Part shown: piece after piece, positions 6,693 to 32,000 of the stretch
Position numbering within the stretch: the stretch's first letter is position 1
Layout of the letters: each line of letters begins with the position of its first letter
DNA from: Nitrosopumilaceae archaeon
Lineage (GTDB): Archaea; Thermoproteota; Nitrososphaeria; Nitrososphaerales; Nitrosopumilaceae
Direction: 5' to 3'
NCBI GenBank assembly: GCA_965203465.1
Contig: CBDBCR010000001.1
Span: forward strand, 428,060 to 460,059
Length of the DNA stretch: 32,000 nt
Notes under the pieces: generated by a model
What the model saw: the letters and a program-made list of their open reading frames with translations, nothing else
Told to the model about the DNA's origin: nothing
Database searches by the model: none
Translations under genes and position numbers: made by a program

Positions 6693-7001
6693 CTAGTGCA
6701 GCTCGATGGACGACTCTGCGAACCCCAGATCCACGAGCGTCTCCTTTATGCTGTCGCGGTGATCGCCCTGCAGGAACACGTATCCCTCCTTCGCGGTGCC
6801 GCCGCAGGCGTACTTGTTCTTCAGATCCTTGGCCACCCTGTCCAAGTCGTTGAGCTTTGGATCGAGCCCCTCTATCATGGTGCCCTTTTTCTTGAAGCGG
6901 CGCGTCTCGAGCCTTATGATGATCTTGGCGCTGTCCTTGGCCAGGTCGCCGCATGCGCACAGATCCTCGGGAAGGCCGCAGGTGTTGCAGATTACCGCCA
7001 T
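6693..7001 (-). CDS. sui1: Translation initiation factor aSUI1 (eIF1)
   Basis: ORF track 102 aa. An N-terminal Cys cluster is followed by a SUI1 domain (...KKKGTMIEGL...YACGGT...VFLQGDHR). Confidence 0.9.
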   Translation of the reverse strand: MAVICNTCGLPEDLCACGDLAKDSAKIIIRLETRRFKKKGTMIEGLDPKLNDLDRVAKDLKNKYACGGTAKEGYVFLQGDHRDSIKETLVDLGFAESSIELH

Positions 7002-7080
7002 TGATTCGAGCCGATCGGGGCCGGCGCACTATTAAGGGTTGTTCAGGCGCGCAGGCGCGGGGCCCGCGGAAAGGCTTCAA

Positions 7081-7093
7081 TTCATTTAAAAAG
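7081..7093 (+). promoter_or_regulatory. TATA-like box (TTCATTTAAAAAG) for rpl39e-rpl31e
   Basis: A/T-rich block centred ~28 nt upstream of ATG 7115. Confidence 0.5.
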
Positions 7094-7114
7094 AGCTCCG
7101 GAGGGGCGGGCCGA

Positions 7115-7273
7115 ATGGCAGCCCGCAAGCCGTCGTCCCGCAAGATACGGCTGTTCAAGAAGGTAAAGCAGACCTCGCCTGTTCCCGCGTGGGTGATACT
7201 GAAGACCAAGCGGGGCGTGCGCACCAACCCCAAGCGGCGCCCGTGGAGGACGGGCGACGCGGAGGTCGGCTGA
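7115..7273 (+). CDS. rpl39e: 50S ribosomal protein L39e
   Basis: Internal ATG of track ORF 6953..7273. MAARKPSSRKIRLFKKVKQTSPVPAWVILKTKRGVRTNPKRRPWRTG matches the L39e pattern. Confidence 0.9.
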   Translation: MAARKPSSRKIRLFKKVKQTSPVPAWVILKTKRGVRTNPKRRPWRTGDAEVG

Positions 7274-7274
7274 C

Positions 7275-7823
7275 TTGGCAGAAGAGCGGGTGTACACGAT
7301 TAACCTCGGCAAGGCGCTGCTGTCGCAGCCGCAGCACCGGGCGGTGCGGGCCGTCAACATGGTGCGCGAGTTCGCCTCGAAGCACATGCGCAGCTCGGAC
7401 GTAAAGATAGACGAGGATCTTGCGCACCAGATATGGGCGCGCGGCGCGCGCAGCCCGCCGCGCAGGGTACGCGTCCGCATGTGGGAGGGGGAATCCGGCG
7501 AGATCATCGTATCAAAGCACGACGGGGACGTTGAGACGAAAACGGTGCCGGCTGCAGCGGATCGAGACGAACCCAAGCCAGCCGAGGCCGGAGCCGGATC
7601 CGAGCAACCCGAGCCGAAAGCACCCGAGACCAATGCCGAACCTGAAAAGCCCGAGCCGGAAACCGCCGAGCCGAAAGCACCCGAGACCAAAGCCGAACTT
7701 GAAAAGCCCGAGCCGGAAACCGCCGAGCCGAAAGCACCCGAGACCAAAGCCGAACTTGAAAAGCCCGAGCCGGAAACCGCCGACGGGCCGAGCCCCGCCA
7801 AGGACGAACCTCCCAAACCATAA
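7275..7823 (+). CDS. rpl31e: 50S ribosomal protein L31e with ~95-aa repetitive Pro/Glu/Lys-rich C-terminal extension
   Basis: ORF track 182 aa. TTG start lies 1 nt after the rpl39e stop. The N-terminus ERVYTINLGKA...RVRVRM is L31e-like. The tail carries AEPKAPETKAELEKPEPET repeats. Confidence 0.85.
   Translation: MAEERVYTINLGKALLSQPQHRAVRAVNMVREFASKHMRSSDVKIDEDLAHQIWARGARSPPRRVRVRMWEGESGEIIVSKHDGDVETKTVPAAADRDEPKPAEAGAGSEQPEPKAPETNAEPEKPEPETAEPKAPETKAELEKPEPETAEPKAPETKAELEKPEPETADGPSPAKDEPPKP
7621..7791 (+). repeat. 3 x 57-bp in-frame tandem repeat inside rpl31e
   Basis: Units are 7621-7677, 7678-7734 and 7735-7791. Copies 2 and 3 are identical. Copy 1 differs at 2 positions. Confidence 0.9.
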
Positions 7824-8071
7824 CGCCGAGACGGAACAACCTCCACGTAAGGCAAGCCCGCCAAATTCCCCAAGTTGGAGGGGTTCAAAACTCGCGACTC
7901 GATCGATTGCGCGTGGCGCGGATCTGGCTGCGTGGCAGAGGCTGGCCCCGCGGCACGCATTGCCTCGAGCCCGGAACGCAGTTCCGCACATCTTGGAGGG
8001 CGGCGAGCGGGCACTGGCCAGGTACGCATGCAGACGGCTTTGAGTCCGAGTTTAGCCTAGGGGCGGCGCAT

Positions 8072-8162
8072 CTTTGTTCGCCAATTCGAATTTTCGTGCC
8101 TGCGTAGCCGGATCGGCCAAAAGGGGCTCCGCTCATGCACGGGTTGCAGAATCACCAAAGCC
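8072..8162 (+). repeat. Degenerate copy of the ~100-bp inverted-repeat hairpin element (intact copy at 30403-30505)
   Basis: Hand alignment to 30406-30504. Shared blocks are CTTTGTTCG.CAATTCG.ATTTTCGTGCCTGCG, TAGCCGGATCGGCCAAAA, GGCTCCG.TCA.GCACGG and GAAT.ACC..AAAGCC, in the same orientation. Confidence 0.7.
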
Positions 8163-8206
8163 GCACAACCACACAAAATATGACTCACGAAGCGAGAGCA
8201 AGATCG

Positions 8207-8617
8207 ATGTCCAAACTGCAGACGACAACCGTGGACAAAAAAAGGCCGGGTAAAATACCCAAGATTCTGTTGGAAAATCTGGGGCTGGAGGCGCCTGCGA
8301 CTCTTGCCATTGGGATTGAAGGCGGCTCGATTGTGATGACGCTGCACCCGACACCAGGCGAACCCGCATCGCGCCGACTCAAGCAATTTGTAGAAAAAGA
8401 AACGATCTCCGACAGGATCGCAGAGCTCGTAGACGGTGCAAGCGGACAAGACCCGAAGCACCGGGGTTCAAAAGACGAGCTGCGCGACATAATGGAGTTG
8501 CTGGGCATGGACGACGACGGAGACGTGCCGGAAACCATCGAGGGCTTGATAAAAGATTGCGCAAAAGAGGGCGAAAATTCTTTAGACATTGTGCGATCCG
8601 TCAGAAATCGCATCTGA
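8207..8617 (+). CDS. AbrB/SpoVT (MazE-like) DNA-binding domain protein with acidic C-terminal extension
   Basis: Track ORF 8135..8617. The start was moved to ATG 8207 because ATG 8135 lies inside the repeat element and AAAATAT lies ~27 nt upstream of 8207. N-terminus KIPKILLENLGLEAPATLAIGIEGGSIVMTLHP looks like an AbrB swapped-hairpin. Codon usage is AT-richer than in neighbouring genes. Confidence 0.6.
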   Translation: MSKLQTTTVDKKRPGKIPKILLENLGLEAPATLAIGIEGGSIVMTLHPTPGEPASRRLKQFVEKETISDRIAELVDGASGQDPKHRGSKDELRDIMELLGMDDDGDVPETIEGLIKDCAKEGENSLDIVRSVRNRI

Positions 8618-9044
8618 CAAGCAACGCGAATATTGCGACACCGTCTGGGGCAACGGACAAGACTCACACCGGAGCTCGGCCAACCGTCGCAGCAAAACGC
8701 GAAATTGCCGTCGAGACAAAGACACTTGCGCGGGACGAAAAACCGCGGCAAGCTTGAATTCCGCGCACCGGAATCGCCCTTGACCGCGCACCACGGGCAG
8801 GTTTTGTCAAAGATCACCACGCAACCAGTTCTAACAAAAGCCGACGCCCGGAAGCGCCGATACTCGAGTCTGGGGCCCGCAGACATCGAGCATGCGTATC
8901 TTGCACGCCGGGCGGGATCTGGCTTTCACGCGACGGACGGCTCTTTCGAGCACTTGGCCGATCCAGACCTTGAACACATGTCGTTTCACGCATTGGAGAG
9001 GCAAAGCCCGGCCCAAAAACGCCCGTCGAGCCTGAACGGGCCGG

Positions 9045-10034
9045 CTAGTCTTCCAGCTGGTAGCCGCCCAGCCCCCAGTCGTAGCTGGCGTCGGGCACGT
9101 CCCAGTCGAGCGTCTTCGACGATGGTATGGCGCCGAGCGGATCGTACGCGTCGAACTTTGCCAGGCTCTGCGCGCCTGCCAGCAGGGCTATCCCGGAGCG
9201 GCCGGTCCCCGACTCCACCACGGTGGCCGCGCCCTCGCCCGCGCCGCGCCCCGTCTCGGAGAGCACCCTGAGCATGCCGGCCGGCACGCCGTCGCCCATC
9301 ACGTGCACCGCAGAGCCCGAGACCGAGCCGGGCGCCACGCTCCCGTACAGCGTGCTCAGCGCGTCGCGCAAAGCTTCGCGCGGCTCCAGGCCGCCGCGCG
9401 AGGGGGCCAGCACGCCGTCGCCCTGCGGGGCGGATCTGTCCCTGAGCGAGGCGGCGATGGCGCGCACGGCCGGATCCGACAGCCTGCAGCACGACCTGGC
9501 CGACAGGTCGGGGTTGCACTCTGCCACCGCGTCGTTGTCTATTATGACGGTGCACGAAGAGGCGGCCCTGAGACGCCTGAGGGCCACGCCCGAGCCGAAC
9601 ACCCTGTCCTTTTCGTGGGCGAACGGCATGATGGCCAGCGTGACCAGCGTCCTGCCTCCGAAGAGCGGGGCTATCAGCGGCCCGAGCGCCTGCCCGGAGC
9701 GGCCGGCCAGGTTGGCCACGAGCACGGCGGTGTGGTACTTTGAGAGGCGATCGGATATCTCACCCATCGCGGCCCCCGCGTACCCGCGTATGGCCCCGGC
9801 GGAGGGGTTGACCAGCGGCCCGGTGCCTACGCGGATGCCGCCGGGCCCCAAGTCTGCAGGATCGGGGCTGACAAGCACGGGCTCGGCGCCGAGGGCCTCG
9901 GCTACGAGCGGCGCGAGGCGCGCGCCGGCGCCCCCTATGCCGATCGCAGCTGCGGGCTCGCCTATCTGGTAATCCAACGCCGGGCCCTCCCCGTTTCGGA
10001 TAAAAAACCTTGTTGTGGCCCGGGATCTGACCAT
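9045..10034 (-). CDS. ftsZ: FtsZ/tubulin-family paralogue with degenerate GTP-binding signature
   Basis: ORF track 329 aa. IGIGGAGARL corresponds to FtsZ GxGGxG. VLVANLAGRSGQALGPLIA sits where GGGTGTG is expected. IIDND is also present. Start is 3 nt after the upstream stop. Confidence 0.7.
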   Translation of the reverse strand: MVRSRATTRFFIRNGEGPALDYQIGEPAAAIGIGGAGARLAPLVAEALGAEPVLVSPDPADLGPGGIRVGTGPLVNPSAGAIRGYAGAAMGEISDRLSKYHTAVLVANLAGRSGQALGPLIAPLFGGRTLVTLAIMPFAHEKDRVFGSGVALRRLRAASSCTVIIDNDAVAECNPDLSARSCCRLSDPAVRAIAASLRDRSAPQGDGVLAPSRGGLEPREALRDALSTLYGSVAPGSVSGSAVHVMGDGVPAGMLRVLSETGRGAGEGAATVVESGTGRSGIALLAGAQSLAKFDAYDPLGAIPSSKTLDWDVPDASYDWGLGGYQLED

Positions 10035-10037
10035 TGT

Positions 10038-11291
10038 CTAATTTTCTCGACAAAGGCGCCCGGCCAGCCCGTGGGCCGAGGCCCCGGTGATCTCGACGGT
10101 GTGCGTGCCCTCGGGGGCCCCCTCGGCCAGGACGGGCCTGTAGGCGGGGGTGCGCCCCTTTTGGCCCGCGAACAGGACGGGCCCGCGCCACCCCACCCAC
10201 GCCCTGTTGCTCTCGAGGGATATGCGCTCGGCCTCGGCGGCGGCCATGCGGCTCCTCTCGGATATGGCCGCGTGCGGCACCTGCTCCCTGCCGGCGGCCT
10301 CGGTGCCGGGCCTCCTGCTGTACTTTGAGAGGTTCACGATGTCGGGCCTCGTCTCCCTGATCAGATCCAGGGTCTGCCGGAACTCCGCGTCAGTCTCGGA
10401 CGGGAACCCGGCTATGATGTCCGTAGAGAGGGTGAACCGCTCGAACCTCTTCCTCGCCTCCGAGGCGGCCTTCCTGAAGGCGCCGGCCGTGTGCCCGCGC
10501 GCCATCTCGCGCAGCACCCTGTCGCTGCCCGACTGGACGGGCACGTGCAGGAACTTGTACACCTTTGGGTGGTCCATAGCCTCGAGCAGCCTCTCGCGTA
10601 TGCGCGGCATGTACATGGGGTTCATCATGCCGACCCTTATCATGAACTCGCCGGGCACCGCGCGCACGCGCTCGACCAGCTCGGGCAGGTCTGTTCCTAT
10701 GTCGAGGCCGTAGCACCCGTTGTCCGTCGAGGTGAGCCAGATCTCGCGGCACCCGTCGCGCACGTCGCGCTCGACCTGCTCCGCTATGCGGCCGGGCCGG
10801 TAGCTGCGCAGGCCGCCCTTTGCAAGCTTTGTCTGGCAGAACGTGCACTCGCTCATGCAGCCGCTGGCGATCTCGACGATGCCCACCGAGCGGTTCAGCC
10901 TGAGCCTCGGCAGGGCCGTCTTTTCGGCGCCCGTATCCTCCAGCGCGACAGTCCGCCTGCCCTCCAGCGCCGAATTGACAACCTCGAGGGCCCTGCTTAC
11001 GGCGCCGGGCCCCATCAGGCTGGCCGAGCCGGCCGCCCTGCTGACCGTCTGCGGCTCGGCCTTTGCCATGCAGCCGGCCACGACCAGCGGCCGCGAGCCC
11101 AGCTTGCGCACGCGGTGCATCATCCTGCCGGCGGTCGCGTCCTTTACGGAGCAGGTCACCACGAGGCTCAGATCCGCCTCCTCGGCCGAGCCCGCCATCG
11201 AGTGGCCCCCGCCCGCCAAGATCCCCGCGATCGCCTCCGAATCCGCATAGCTTGCAGAGCAGCCGTACGCCTCTATCCATATGCGGGCCAT
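10038..11291 (-). CDS. Radical-SAM methylthiotransferase, MiaB/MtaB (CDKAL1-like) family
   Basis: Internal ATG of track ORF 10038..12431. MARIWIEAYGCSASYADSE is an UPF0004-type N-terminus. The CMSECTFC radical-SAM CxxxCxxC motif and a TRAM-like C-terminus are present. Start is 2 nt after the upstream stop. Confidence 0.8.
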   Translation of the reverse strand: MARIWIEAYGCSASYADSEAIAGILAGGGHSMAGSAEEADLSLVVTCSVKDATAGRMMHRVRKLGSRPLVVAGCMAKAEPQTVSRAAGSASLMGPGAVSRALEVVNSALEGRRTVALEDTGAEKTALPRLRLNRSVGIVEIASGCMSECTFCQTKLAKGGLRSYRPGRIAEQVERDVRDGCREIWLTSTDNGCYGLDIGTDLPELVERVRAVPGEFMIRVGMMNPMYMPRIRERLLEAMDHPKVYKFLHVPVQSGSDRVLREMARGHTAGAFRKAASEARKRFERFTLSTDIIAGFPSETDAEFRQTLDLIRETRPDIVNLSKYSRRPGTEAAGREQVPHAAISERSRMAAAEAERISLESNRAWVGWRGPVLFAGQKGRTPAYRPVLAEGAPEGTHTVEITGASAHGLAGRLCREN

Positions 11292-14216: not shown

Positions 14217-14294
14217 TGGTGGGCCCGATGAGATTCGAACTCATGACCTTTCGATTATCAGTCGAACGCTCCAGCCAAGCTGAGCTACGAGCCC
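14217..14294 (-). tRNA. tRNA-Ile (anticodon GAT), CCA encoded
   Basis: Reverse complement reads GGGCTCGTAGCTCAGCTTGGCTGGAGCGTTCGACTGATAATCGAAAGGTCATGAGTTCGAATCTCATCGGGCCCACCA. It folds as a full cloverleaf with anticodon loop CTGATAA. TATA-like box lies ~29 nt upstream. Confidence 0.9.
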
Positions 14295-14942: not shown

Positions 14943-15016
14943 GGGCTGGTAGTATAGCCTGGTAGTATACCCGCCTTGCACGCGGGGGGTCATGGGTTCG
15001 AATCCCGTCCAGTCCA
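14943..15016 (+). tRNA. tRNA-Ala (anticodon TGC)
   Basis: GGGCTGGTAGTATAGCCTGGTAGTATACCCGCCTTGCACGCGGGGGGTCATGGGTTCGAATCCCGTCCAGTCCA. It forms a cloverleaf with the G3:U70 Ala identity pair and anticodon loop CTTGCAC. No CCA is encoded. Confidence 0.9.
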
Positions 15017-28759: not shown

Positions 28760-28862
28760 CCATGGGTGGGCGGCGGCCGCGGTTCATATTTAAACCGTGG
28801 ACAGCGGCCCCGGCCCGGGGCGCTTTGCAAATGTTAATTACCGTGTGCCCCGCCGGCGCCCC

Positions 28863-30187: not shown

Positions 30188-30355
30188 CTAGTCGGACGCC
30201 TCTTGCGAGCGCGCCTCCTCCAGGTACGCCCGCCTCTCCTCGTTGACCTTGTCCTGGTCTATGGACAGGTCGTCGTCTACTATGACGATGCCGCTGTCCG
30301 GCGAGGGGTCAGAGCTCTTGGGCTTTTTGGCCTTTTTCTCCTTTTTGGCAGCCAT
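30188..30355 (-). CDS. 55-aa charged protein (Lys-rich N-terminus, acidic C-terminus), hypothetical
   Basis: Internal ATG 30355 of track ORF 30188..30706. MAAKKEKKAKKPKSSDPSPDSGIVIVDDDLSIDQDKVNEERRAYLEEARSQEASD. High GC3. GTTTTAATAAC box lies ~30 nt upstream. Confidence 0.5.
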   Translation of the reverse strand: MAAKKEKKAKKPKSSDPSPDSGIVIVDDDLSIDQDKVNEERRAYLEEARSQEASD

Positions 30356-30402
30356 CGTGCGGCTCTTTTTGCCCGCCGCGTTATTAAAACTTGACCGGAG
30401 TC

Positions 30403-30505
30403 GGGCTTTGTTCGGCAATTCGTATTTTCGTGCCTGCGCAGTAGCCGGATCGGCCAAAAAACGGCTCCGTTCAGGCACGGATCGCGGAATTACCGAACAA
30501 AGCCC
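30403..30505 (+). mobile_element. 103-bp MITE-like / rod-hairpin element with 19-nt terminal inverted repeats
   Basis: GGGCTTTGTTCGGCAATTC (30403-30421) pairs with GAATTACCGAACAAAGCCC (30487-30505), 18/19 complementary. Nested pairs are CGTGCCTG (30429-36)/CAGGCACG (30472-79) and AGCCG (30443-47)/CGGCT (30462-66). A second, decayed copy lies at 8072-8162. Confidence 0.6.
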
Positions 30506-30517
30506 CTCTGCGCTGAC

Positions 30518-30527
30518 CTTTATTACG
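30518..30527 (+). promoter_or_regulatory. TATA-like box for ileS
   Basis: CTTTATTACG, centred ~26 nt upstream of GTG 30548. Confidence 0.5.
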
Positions 30528-30547: not shown

Positions 30548-32000
30548 GTGGAAAAGGACTTCGACCCCAAGGCCATAGAGGCGGAAACGCGCGCTAGGCT
30601 GCCAGTCCAGGAGCAGAGGCGCCTGGTGGCCGCGTCCGAGCTCTCCGGGACGGTCGGCTTCGTCGAGGGGCCGCCCACCATGAACGGCACGCCGCACGCC
30701 GGCCACCTACGGGGCCGCATAATAAAGGACGTCTGGTACCGGCATTCGACGCTGTCCGGCAGGCGCGTGCGCTTCGAGGCCGGATGGGACGCGCAGGGGC
30801 TGCCCGTCGAGCTGCAGGCCCAAAAGGAGCTGGGCGTCTCGGGCTCAAAGTCGGAGCTGATGGCAAAAGTCGGCGCCGAGGGGCTGGCCGCAAAGTGCAA
30901 GGAGCTGGTACACCGGTACCAGAAAGAGTGGGCCGAGGCAGACGAGCTGCTCGGCGTCTCGCTGGGCCAGGAGGGGGCGTACTGGACGTACCGCGACGAG
31001 TACATCGAAAAAGAGTGGCAGGTGCTCCGGCGCGGGCTGGAGCGGGGCATACTGGAGCAGGACTACACGGTGGTCGCCTACTGCCCCAGCTGCCAGACCT
31101 CGCTGAGCCACGCCGAGGTCAACCAGGGGTACGAGGAGGTCGAGGATCCGTCGATGTACTACAAGGTCCGGCTAGCCGGGCGCGACGAGTACCTCGTAGT
31201 GTGGACTACCATGCCGTTCACGCTGGTCACCGACGCCATGATAGGGCTGGATCCGGACGAGACGTACTGCCGCGTGCGCGTCGGATCCGAAAAGTGGGTA
31301 GTGGGCGGCTCGCGCCTCGGGCCGCTCATGGAAGAGCTCGGCCTCGGGTACGAAGTCGAGTCGCGCGCGCCCGGCTCTTCGTTCGAGGGGCTAAAGTACG
31401 AGCACCCGCTGCTGGACGTACTGCCCAGGCTGGCCGAGCTCGCGCGCGGGCCAAAGTACCACGTGGCCGTGTGCGAAAAGTTCGTCGACGCGGGAGCGGG
31501 CAGCGGCCTGGTCCACCTCTCGCCCGCAAACGGCGAGGAGGACATGGCGGCTGCCTCGAGGCGCGGCGTGGATGTGTTCTGCCCGATCGACGACGAGGTC
31601 CGCTTCACGGAAGACGCGGGCCCCTACGCGGGCCTGCAGGTGCGCGAAGCCGACGCGGCGGTCGCGCGCGATCTGGAGGCGCGCGGGGCGCTGGTGCGCC
31701 TCGGCAGGCTGCGCCACAAGTACCCGCTGTGCTGGAGGTCGCGCCACCCCGTCGTCTGGCTCGCCCGCCGGGGCTGGTTCTACAAGCTGGACCGGCTGGG
31801 CGACGCGGCCGTAAAGGCGGCCGAATCGGTGCAGTACTATTACGAGCAGCCGCGCAACCGGTTTCTGTCCATCGTGCGCGAGCGCCACCCGTGGTGCGTA
31901 TCGCGCGAGCGCGCCTGGGGGACGCCGCTGCCAGCCTGGAAGTGCTCCGGGTGCGGCAAGCACACGTGGATGTTCTCGCGCGAGCAGATAGTGCGGGCCG
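30548..32000 (+). CDS. ileS: Isoleucyl-tRNA synthetase (N-terminal ~484 aa; continues past the window)
   Basis: Not in ORF track because it is partial. Translation from GVG-adjacent GTG 30548 reads VEKDFDPKAIEAETRARL...GPPTMNGTPHAGHLRGRIIKD (HIGH-type motif)...AYCPSCQTSLSHAEV...WCVSRERAWGTPLP. The frame is open to 32000. Confidence 0.9.
   Translation, partial: MEKDFDPKAIEAETRARLPVQEQRRLVAASELSGTVGFVEGPPTMNGTPHAGHLRGRIIKDVWYRHSTLSGRRVRFEAGWDAQGLPVELQAQKELGVSGSKSELMAKVGAEGLAAKCKELVHRYQKEWAEADELLGVSLGQEGAYWTYRDEYIEKEWQVLRRGLERGILEQDYTVVAYCPSCQTSLSHAEVNQGYEEVEDPSMYYKVRLAGRDEYLVVWTTMPFTLVTDAMIGLDPDETYCRVRVGSEKWVVGGSRLGPLMEELGLGYEVESRAPGSSFEGLKYEHPLLDVLPRLAELARGPKYHVAVCEKFVDAGAGSGLVHLSPANGEEDMAAASRRGVDVFCPIDDEVRFTEDAGPYAGLQVREADAAVARDLEARGALVRLGRLRHKYPLCWRSRHPVVWLARRGWFYKLDRLGDAAVKAAESVQYYYEQPRNRFLSIVRERHPWCVSRERAWGTPLPAWKCSGCGKHTWMFSREQIVRA

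What the first reader, a model, noticed from the sequence alone, without database searches (positions are those of the whole stretch)
30403..30505. Intact ~100-bp inverted-repeat rod-hairpin element between two divergent core promoters
- The element has 19-nt terminal inverted repeats (18/19 complementary).
- Two nested inner inverted repeats let the whole 103 bp fold into one long imperfect hairpin.
- It lies 12-13 nt from the TATA-like box of the 55-aa gene (30380-30390, minus strand) and 12-13 nt from the ileS TATA-like box (30518-30527, plus strand).
- A second, decayed copy in the same orientation lies 22 kb away at 8072-8162, so this is a dispersed family and not a local palindrome.
- Candidate identities: a MITE (non-autonomous transposon), a structured small RNA gene, or a protein-bound regulatory/insulator module.
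- I saw no clear target-site duplication.
Basis: seen in the sequence. Interest (0 to 1): 0.7.

Follow-up and report, generated by a model that had tools for sequence, protein, structure and literature searches.

The report
Mobile 101-bp MITE between two promoters
The hairpin-forming repeat is a tiny non-autonomous transposon (a MITE) that is still jumping within a population of ammonia-oxidising archaea; this kind of element is well known, but I found no earlier description of one in this group.

Summary
Window 30404-30504 is a 101-bp element with 19-nt terminal inverted repeats (18/19), and the whole unit folds into one hairpin (z about -7 on both strands). A decayed copy lies at 8070-8164.

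It is a MITE. Contigs from related metagenome strains show:
- Identical or near-identical copies at new sites, each flanked by an exact 8-bp target-site duplication: TAGTCGGA, CGGAGTCG, CGTTTTGA, GGCCTGAA and CCGGAGTC.
- Matching empty sites for three of these insertions.

The window copy has no duplication because its right-hand copy, plus about 25 bp, has been deleted. Sister strains still carry CCGGAGTC on both sides. A related species has the empty site, with the two TATA boxes only 20 bp apart.

I found no Rfam match and no covariation, so nothing supports an RNA gene.

I did not find the transposase. The 8-bp duplication and the GG..TGT repeat tips fit archaeal IS6-like elements. A sister strain carries an active IS6-like transposon that also makes an 8-bp duplication, but its repeats differ, so the link is inferred.

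Surviving insertions sit at the edges of core promoters. Selection in a compact genome probably explains this.

Verdict: new member of a known kind, moderate-to-low interest.

The parts
30404..30504 (+). MITE copy A, canonical and intact, 101 bp
   Evidence: Boundaries come from 8-bp duplications around 97-100% identical copies in L016 and L028. Hairpin z-scores are -6.65 and -7.67.
30404..30422 (+). Left terminal inverted repeat, GGCTTTGTTCGGCAATTCG
30486..30504 (-). Right terminal inverted repeat. Its reverse complement is GGCTTTGTTCGGTAATTCC.
30395..30403 (.). Target sequence CCGGAGTCG next to the left end. This is the only surviving copy of the duplication at site A, and it is re-used by a second insertion in L017.
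   Evidence: L033, L041 and L036 carry CCGGAGTC on both sides. L017 carries CGGAGTCG on both sides of an extra copy.
30505..30517 (.). Right flank, CCTCTGCGCTGAC. The second copy of the duplication and about 25 bp (CCGGAGTCGGGCGCAGCGCCGGGCC...) are missing here compared with L033, L041 and L036.
   Evidence: read by eye from the printed sequences.
30189..30196 (.). Empty target TAGTCGGA of the polymorphic insertion N. It overlaps the stop codon of the 55-aa gene.
   Evidence: L016 2190-2290 holds a 100% identical copy flanked by TAGTCGGA on both sides. The stop codon is regenerated by the element's terminal base.
8070..8164 (+). MITE copy B, old and decayed. It is 84% identical, its left tip reads AT instead of GG, its right arm has indels, and no duplication is recognisable.
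   Evidence: L018, L019 and L027 have a shorter, diverged sequence at this position.
30380..30389 (-). TATA-like box of the 55-aa gene (context only, not part of the element)
   Evidence: Conserved in all lineages, including the empty site. It lies about 25-30 nt upstream of the ATG at 30355.
30518..30527 (+). TATA-like box of ileS (context only, not part of the element)
   Evidence: Conserved in all lineages. The ileS GTG start is at 30548.
30188..30355 (-). 55-aa gene flanking the element (context only)

Best explanation
The element is a 101-bp non-autonomous DNA transposon (MITE).

Shown:
- It has 19-bp terminal inverted repeats and no coding capacity.
- It inserts with an 8-bp target-site duplication.
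- It is mobile now: 100%-identical copies sit at positions that are empty in sister strains.
- The window copy sits in a target hit repeatedly in different lineages. This target is the roughly 8 bp of free DNA between two back-to-back core promoters. The copy has since lost its right-hand duplication through a deletion of about 25 bp.

Inferred:
- A DDE transposase supplied in trans binds the repeats, makes cuts staggered by 8 bp in the target, and gap repair creates the duplication.
- That transposase belongs to the archaeal IS6-like group (sub-claim, about 0.4).
- Surviving copies hug promoter edges because, in this compact genome, only insertions where the duplication rebuilds both neighbours are tolerated.
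For: Target-site duplications and insertion polymorphism:
- L016: extra copy flanked by TAGTCGGA. The same site is empty in the window and in the other contigs that cover it.
- L017: extra copy flanked by CGGAGTCG, abutting the resident copy.
- L021, L022, L024, L025, L026: a 93% copy upstream of SUI1 flanked by CGTTTTGA. It is absent from the window and from L018, L019, L020, L023 and L027.
- L028: a 97% copy flanked by GGCCTGAA. The empty site, with a single GGCCTGAA, is in L062.
- Site A: empty in L044-L050; flanked by CCGGAGTC in L033 and L041; flanked by the same 8 bp but with the element inverted in L036.
- An exact 8-bp match has a chance probability of 1.5e-5 per site.

Element anatomy:
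- Repeats and hairpin.
- Older copies (82-88% identical) show one-sided indels in the repeats, as expected for decay.

Against an RNA gene:
- No Rfam family reaches threshold.
- The RNAalifold covariation term is 0.06, with one compensatory pair out of 24.

For an IS6-like transposase:
- Published IS6 features are an 8-bp duplication, a GG tip, G at position 7 and a cTGTt motif. Archaeal members have repeats of at least 18 bp and lack G10 (PMC7986276, PMC6807381). The element's GGCTTTGTTCGGCAATTCG fits these.
- Sister strain L061 carries a 4.3-kb transposon with repeats GGTTCTGTGTAAAACYGGTGATACGGGC and an 8-bp duplication TCAAAGGC. Its 373-aa transposase matches NCBIfam transpos_IS6 at E = 1.5e-35.
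Against: - No autonomous element with matching repeats was found in about 0.7 Mb of related, highly redundant contigs. The IS6-like transposon found shares only the GGyTyTGT tip.
- Only six insertion sites are known. The genome-wide copy number could not be measured: the 19-mer scans of genome and metagenome collections returned only chance hits.
- The window copy itself has no duplication.
- Two key contigs, L016 and L017, are short metagenome contigs of 2.9 and 1.3 kb. I did not check the junctions against reads.
- The published IS6 analysis notes that the same conserved repeat bases (GG tip, G7) also occur in other IS families. Other IS families that I recall as making 8-bp duplications (ISL3, IS1595, IS256, IS1) are not excluded; I did not check this.
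- The hairpin runs the full length of the element. A secondary role as RNA, DNA cruciform or protein site is untested.
Confidence: 0.9

Rival explanations
1. It is a structured small-RNA gene present in several copies, and the hairpin is the functional product.
For: The predicted fold is very stable on both strands. One compensatory pair occurs, and the L036 copy has matching changes in both arms.
Against: - The only Rfam match is a sub-threshold generic hairpin, 23.7 bits against a gathering score of 114.
- The covariation term is 0.06, and most changes are one-sided or break pairs.
- Copies occur in either orientation at the same site, and none has its own promoter box.
- Exact 8-bp duplications and empty sites show that the unit moves as DNA.
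- Equal stability on both strands is what a DNA palindrome gives.
Confidence: 0.03
2. It is a transposon-derived sequence now kept as a regulatory module: a binding site, an insulator between divergent promoters, or an oligo-T terminator. This would be in addition to being a MITE.
For: - Six of seven informative flanks place an element end 11-15 nt from a TATA-like box.
- The - strand carries a T6 run (CCGTTTTTTGG), a plausible archaeal termination signal (my own knowledge, not checked here). In L016 the element sits directly after a stop codon, in the orientation that puts this run on the transcript.
- Site A is occupied in several lineages.
Against: - The related species with the empty site has the same two conserved promoters, so they exist without the element.
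- Orientation relative to the neighbouring gene is not consistent.
- Old copies decay freely.
- The L028 copy lies between a TATA box and the start codon, which looks disruptive rather than helpful.
- Selection for harmless positions in a compact genome explains the spacing without any function.
Confidence: 0.08
3. The transposition machinery actively targets core-promoter edges, for example DNA bent by TBP/TFB or a motif such as AGTCGG. Selection is not the main cause of the pattern.
For: - The same 8 bp (CCGGAGTC/CGGAGTCG) was used by at least three distinguishable insertions: an older subfamily, an inverted subfamily with its own repeat variants, and the canonical copy in L017.
- Two unrelated targets share AGTCGG.
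- Element ends are consistently 11-15 nt from AT-rich boxes.
Against: - Only six sites are known.
- The other targets (GGCCTGAA, CGTTTTGA) share no motif.
- The free DNA between the two promoters at site A is itself only about 8 bp, so selection predicts the same register.
- Other, unrelated cassettes also land in this intergenic region.
Confidence: 0.15
4. It is a palindromic element moved by a single-strand (HUH, IS200/IS605-type) transposase, or an integron attC-like recombination site.
For: It is a long imperfect hairpin of about 100 bp, like the REP/PATE elements and attC sites I recall from the literature. This resemblance is from memory and was not tested.
Against: To my knowledge those systems do not make a fixed-length target duplication. 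Here an exact 8-bp duplication flanks five insertions. No cassette array or neighbouring tnpA or integrase gene appears in any locus.
Confidence: 0.01
5. It is a coincidental palindrome that was duplicated once.
For: None beyond the low copy number in the window.
Against: Six sites across several lineages, exact duplications, matching empty sites, and shuffle statistics.
Confidence: 0

Closest known systems
IS6-family MITEs listed in ISfinder (MITEBth2 and MITEHarch3; two entries, of 227 and 336 bp)
   Same: Non-coding and bounded by IS-type inverted repeats. The family makes 8-bp duplications. The repeats have a GG tip and a G7/TGT signature. Archaeal IS6-like repeats are at least 18 bp long and lack G10 (PMC7986276, PMC6807381).
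   Different: This element is much shorter (101 bp) and is palindromic along its whole length. It lacks the 'caaa' motif in the usual register. No cognate IS6-like transposase with the same repeats was found, so membership is only a lead.
The 4.3-kb IS6-like transposon in sister strains (L061 5664-9958; also L063-L067)
   Same: Same host population, same 8-bp duplication length, and the same repeat tip GGyTyTGT.
   Different: Beyond position 8 the repeats are unrelated (about 10 of 27 positions match). It is autonomous and carries MmeI-type restriction-modification and MazE-like passenger genes. It is probably not the direct mobiliser.
Archaeal MITEs of Sulfolobus (SM1-SM4) and haloarchaea. 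This comparison is from my own knowledge and was not tested here.
   Same: Short non-autonomous elements with inverted repeats and duplications matching a resident IS family, found in intergenic DNA.
   Different: Different host phylum, different IS families, and no sequence relationship was examined. I found no thaumarchaeal MITE in the papers I searched: the 2019 survey of thaumarchaeal mobile elements never uses the word, and a full-text search gave one irrelevant hit.
Bacterial promoter-proximal MITEs such as Neisseria Correia elements and ERIC/IRU repeats. This comparison is from my own knowledge.
   Same: Imperfect palindromes of about 100-150 bp in intergenic DNA, often next to promoters. 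They can be co-transcribed and alter expression.
   Different: Bacterial, with different duplications (TA for Correia) and much higher copy number. No effect on expression has been shown here.

Membership tests
MITE (non-autonomous DNA transposon) | Small size and no transposase gene | tested here: met
   The element is 101 bp. It has no start-to-stop ORF of its own.
MITE (non-autonomous DNA transposon) | Terminal inverted repeats | tested here: met
Counted from the TSD-defined tips, the first 18 nt match at 17/18 in the canonical copy. The same repeats appear in copies S and P.
MITE (non-autonomous DNA transposon) | Target-site duplication of fixed length at the junctions | tested here: met
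   An exact 8 bp flanks five insertions: TAGTCGGA, CGGAGTCG, CGTTTTGA, GGCCTGAA and CCGGAGTC. The window copy A lacks it because of an adjacent deletion. Copy B is too decayed to tell.
MITE (non-autonomous DNA transposon) | Presence/absence polymorphism with precise empty sites | tested here: met
   Site N is empty at window 30189-30196. Site P is empty at L062 10882-10889. Site A is empty in L044-L050.
MITE (non-autonomous DNA transposon) | Multiple dispersed copies | tested here: met
   Six sites in about 0.7 Mb of redundant related contigs. The genome-wide number is unknown.
MITE (non-autonomous DNA transposon) | An autonomous partner with the same terminal repeats | tested here: not met
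   No repeat-flanked transposase was found in the held sequence. The whole genome could not be searched. This feature is usual for MITEs but is not required to call one.
IS6-like derivative | 8-bp target-site duplication | tested here: met
   compared with PMC7986276.
IS6-like derivative | Repeat signature: G1, G2, G7, a cTGTt motif; archaeal type at least 18 bp without G10 | tested here: met
   GGCTTTGTTCGGCAATTCG has G1, G2, G7 and TGTT at positions 6-9, has C at position 10, and is about 19 bp long. The source paper notes that these bases also occur in other IS families.
IS6-like derivative | The 'caaa' motif at positions 11-14 | tested here: not met
   The element has GGCA at positions 11-14. 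CAAT appears two positions later.
IS6-like derivative | A cognate IS6-family transposase in the same genomes that recognises these repeats | tested here: inconclusive
   An IS6-like transposase is present in sister strains (NCBIfam transpos_IS6, 122.8 bits against a cutoff of 125; Pfam DDE_Tnp_IS240 E = 1.1e-10). Its own repeats differ beyond the tip.
Structured non-coding RNA | Match to a curated family, or covariation supporting the fold | tested here: not met
   No Rfam family reaches threshold. The covariation term is 0.06, with 1 of 24 pairs compensatory in 10 sequences.
Structured non-coding RNA | A discrete transcript | not testable with these tools
   No expression data were available.
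IS200/IS605-type palindromic element (REP/PATE) | No target duplication; insertion next to a fixed short motif | tested here: not met
   8-bp duplications are present and the targets vary.

The most novel reading that the evidence does not exclude
The element, or the transposase that moves it, homes to the upstream edge of archaeal core promoters. Integration would occur a fixed 11-15 bp from the TATA box and would re-use the same 8-bp target repeatedly. That would make it a promoter-targeting transposon in archaea whose copies, with their hairpin and T6 run, could rewire or insulate neighbouring genes.
Probability: 0.12. Interest if true: 0.6.

Novelty: new member of a known kind. Interest (0 to 1): 0.3.

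Why it matters
- It documents a currently active MITE family in uncultivated ammonia-oxidising archaea. The sample names suggest sponge metagenomes. The thaumarchaeal mobile-element survey I read lists 13 IS families and never mentions MITEs.
- Presence or absence of individual copies differs between metagenome samples. That makes the element a usable strain marker and a small window on how a compact symbiont-type genome tolerates transposition.
- The promoter-edge pattern shows how an 8-bp duplication can rebuild both a stop codon and a promoter's upstream flank.
- None of this changes what is known about how MITEs work.

Tried and rejected
- Exact 19-mer scans of genome contigs and metagenome contigs with GTAGCCGGATCGGCCAAAA returned 4 and 7 loci. 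All were chance matches in unrelated organisms.
- Two viral-contig scans, one with the terminal repeat and one with the core, gave chance matches or nothing.
- blastn against the plasmid and phage collections gave no match.
- A protein search with all six translated frames of two copies, meant to catch spurious ORFs lying over other copies, found a single protein. That protein led to copy P in L028.
- The IS5-family IS in L020 was tested as a possible partner. Its repeats (AGAGKYTATGCGTAATC) and its duplication of about 3 bp do not match.
- The IleS homologue search returned only relatives of 64% identity or less. It gave the taxonomy (Nitrosopumilus and Nitrosopumilaceae) but no useful loci.
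- Looking up homologues of the IS5-like transposase gave either the same contig or an unrelated 54%-GC organism.
- The 2.2-kb insert at site A in L037 was considered as a possible autonomous element. Its junction duplication is about 5 bp (CGCGC), its ends are unrelated, and no transposase was called in it.
- A fold-back assembly artefact was considered for the L017 tandem. That would join the element to the reverse complement of its left flank. The observed junction is a direct repeat instead.

Full report
**1. The observation**

The window is about 67% G+C. The element lies in the 192-bp gap between a 55-aa gene on the minus strand (30188-30355) and ileS (GTG at 30548).

- The terminal repeats GGGCTTTGTTCGGCAATTC and GAATTACCGAACAAAGCCC are 18/19 complementary.
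- The whole unit folds into one rod. MFE is -63 and -64.1 kcal/mol on the two strands, against shuffle means of about -38. The z-scores are -6.65 and -7.67, and 0 of 200 shuffles fold as well.
- A second copy in the same orientation lies at 8070-8164. It is 84% identical, its left arm and centre are well preserved, and its right arm is decayed.
- The two copies share an exact 19-mer; 0.04 matches are expected by chance.

**2. Finding relatives**

Exact-pattern scans of the genome, metagenome and viral collections gave only chance hits. The productive route was to look up contigs that encode exactly the window's own proteins, or members of their 90%-identity clusters.

- This yielded about 0.7 Mb of syntenic contigs from many metagenome samples. 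Most are named PANK22-1_SAMN122.... One comes from a JGI metagenome, and a few are Logan assemblies.
- The contigs represent several strains and at least one sister species.
- The organism is an ammonia-oxidising thaumarchaeon. amoA lies in L044, and the best non-self IleS hits are Nitrosopumilus and Nitrosopumilaceae at about 60% identity.
- A sponge origin is my inference from the sample names and from BioProject PRJNA555077, which I recalled from memory and which leads to a Caribbean-sponge study. I did not verify that link.

**3. What the relatives show**

| Site | Where | Identity to window copy | Flanking 8 bp | Empty site seen |
|---|---|---|---|---|
| N | L016 2190-2290 | 100% | TAGTCGGA on both sides | window 30189-30196 and the other contigs that cover the site |
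| A1 | L017 75-175 | 100% | CGGAGTCG on both sides; abuts a second copy | not applicable |
| S | L021, L022, L024, L025, L026, upstream of SUI1 | 93% | CGTTTTGA on both sides | absent from window 7002-7114 and from L018, L019, L020, L023, L027 |
| P | L028 3557-3657 | 97% | GGCCTGAA on both sides | L062 10882-10889 |
| A | L033, L041 | 87-88% | CCGGAGTC on both sides | L044-L050 |
| A, inverted | L036 | 82% | CCGGAGTC on both sides | L044-L050 |
| A, window type | window 30404-30504 | n/a | left copy only | L044-L050 |
| B | window 8070-8164 | 84% | none recognisable | shorter, diverged sequence in L018, L019, L027 |

- Site N: the duplication overlaps the stop codon of the 55-aa gene, and the element's terminal base regenerates that stop.
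- Site A1: the second, adjoining copy carries a one-base variant that is also seen as the sole copy in L014.
- Site S.
- Site P: found through a spurious ORF that runs across it. L062 carries a single GGCCTGAA at the corresponding position.
- Site A empty: the sister species reads ...GCTATTAAAAGTTGACCGGAATCGCGCTGACCTTTATTACGG..., with only 20 bp between the two TATA-like boxes.
- Site A in L036: the copy has its own variant bases in both repeats.
- Site A in the window: the canonical copy keeps the left CCGGAGTCG but lacks the right copy and about 25 bp beyond it.

An exact 8-bp flank match has a chance probability of 1.5e-5. Five such matches, three of them with a matching empty site, settle that the unit moves as DNA and duplicates 8 bp of target.

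**4. Identity**

The element is a MITE. It is 101 bp long (30404-30504 by the duplication-defined ends), has 19-bp terminal inverted repeats, encodes nothing, is dispersed, and is polymorphic.

- It is active now, because identical copies sit at sites N and A1 in single samples.
- It has been active for some time, because copies of 82-88% identity with decaying repeats sit at site A and site B.
- A profile built from ten copies finds nothing more in the sequence held. The family is therefore low in density here: six sites in total.

**5. Alternatives**

- RNA gene: no Rfam family reaches threshold. The one sub-threshold hit is a plant miRNA hairpin model at 23.7 bits against a gathering score of 114. 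On ten distinct copies RNAalifold gives a covariation term of 0.06 and one compensatory pair in 24. The other changes are one-sided or break pairs. The element also occurs in both orientations at one site.
- Single-strand (HUH-type) palindromic elements and attC sites: to my knowledge these do not make fixed duplications.
- Domesticated regulatory role: not excluded. However, the empty-site species has the same two conserved promoters without the element.

**6. Mechanism and partner**

No transposase flanked by these repeats was found. The IS5-family IS in L020 has unrelated repeats and a duplication of about 3 bp.

Published descriptions of IS6-family elements give an 8-bp duplication, a GG tip, G at position 7 and a cTGTt motif. 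Archaeal members have repeats of at least 18 bp and lack G10. Two IS6-family MITEs are listed in ISfinder (PMC7986276, PMC6807381). GGCTTTGTTCGGCAATTCG fits those points, but it lacks the 'caaa' motif in register.

A sister strain carries a 4.3-kb transposon inserted in nucS (L061 5664-9958).
- Its repeats are GGTTCTGTGTAAAACYGGTGATACGGGC (27/28).
- Its 8-bp duplication is TCAAAGGC.
- Its passengers are an MmeI-type restriction-modification gene and a MazE-like gene.
- Its 373-aa transposase matches NCBIfam transpos_IS6 at E = 1.5e-35 (122.8 bits, cutoff 125) and Pfam DDE_Tnp_IS240 at 1.1e-10.
- The same transposon sits at another locus in L063-L067.

So IS6-like transposition with 8-bp duplications does operate in this population. 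That transposon's repeats share only the tip GGyTyTGT with the MITE, however. I therefore put mobilisation by a related but unseen IS6-like transposase at about 0.4. The deletion next to the window copy is the kind of event I would expect from replicative intramolecular transposition, but that is an inference from memory.

**7. Position relative to promoters**

In six of seven informative flanks the element end lies 11-15 nt from a TATA-like box.

- At site A the free DNA between the two back-to-back promoters is only about 8 bp.
- At site N the duplication rebuilds both the stop codon upstream and the 13 nt in front of the next gene's TATA box.
- Unrelated cassettes of 2.2-2.9 kb also land in the site A gap (L037, L051-L060).
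- Site P is the exception. There the element separates a TATA box from the start region.

I read the pattern mainly as selection for harmless positions in a compact genome. Active targeting is possible: the same 8 bp was hit at least three times, and two targets share AGTCGG. Six sites are too few to show it.

**8. Verdict**

The partner family is inferred, and any regulatory role is untested. MITEs are well known in bacteria and archaea. One census reports them in 20% of archaeal genomes (PMC11602168). I found no earlier description of one in Thaumarchaeota in the papers I searched. This is a new member of a known kind, of modest interest.

Noticed in passing
L061 5664-9958 (also L063 about 6900-11200, and L064-L067): A 4.3-kb IS6-like transposon with 28-bp inverted repeats and an 8-bp duplication (TCAAAGGC). 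It carries an MmeI-type restriction-modification gene (913-915 aa), a MazE-like gene and a 373-aa transposase with an N-terminal zinc ribbon. It is inserted in nucS in one strain and next to an LSM gene in others.
   Followed up: partly
L020 13613-15109 (window junction 3980/3981): A 1.5-kb IS5-family insertion sequence (384-aa DDE_Tnp_1 transposase, repeats about AGAGKYTATGCGTAATC). It is nested inside another insert of about 1.1 kb. Both are absent from the window.
   Followed up: partly
L012 11535-12811 versus window 28802-28821: A 1.3-kb segment carrying an Mrr-type restriction endonuclease gene is present in some strains and absent from the window and from L013.
   Followed up: no
window 7275-7823: The ribosomal protein L31e gene has a C-terminal extension of tandem KPEPETAEPKAPETKAELE-like repeats. 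The repeat region differs in length between the window (7622-7793) and L020.
   Followed up: no
L037 7674-10000; L051-L060 between ileS and the 58-aa gene: The same divergent-promoter gap that holds the MITE carries unrelated cassettes of 2.2-2.9 kb in other lineages. The gap appears to be a general integration hot spot. The L037 cassette has a junction duplication of about 5 bp (CGCGC).
   Followed up: partly
L028 3676-3716; L062 10899-10939: A conserved 12-codon upstream ORF (ATGGTC...TGCTAATG) overlaps the start codon of the next gene. In L028 the MITE sits between the ORF's TATA box and its start.
   Followed up: no
L036 7683-7778: The copy at site A in this strain is inverted relative to the copies in the other strains. 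It has matching derived bases in both terminal repeats (GGCC... and AATCC). This suggests an independent hit of the same 8-bp target by another subfamily, or conversion between the two arms.
   Followed up: partly
window 8000-9000: G+C drops to 56% around copy B. The region holds a small ORF (about 8206-8617) whose N-terminus looked to me like an AbrB/MazE-type domain. I ran no domain search on it.
   Followed up: no
window 14220-14294 (-) and 14943-15016 (+): Two tRNA genes, the only Rfam matches in the window.
   Followed up: no
L043 12476-13295: An unrelated 54%-GC organism, fetched by accident, carries a CRISPR-like array with a 73-bp period next to DndB-E genes.
   Followed up: no
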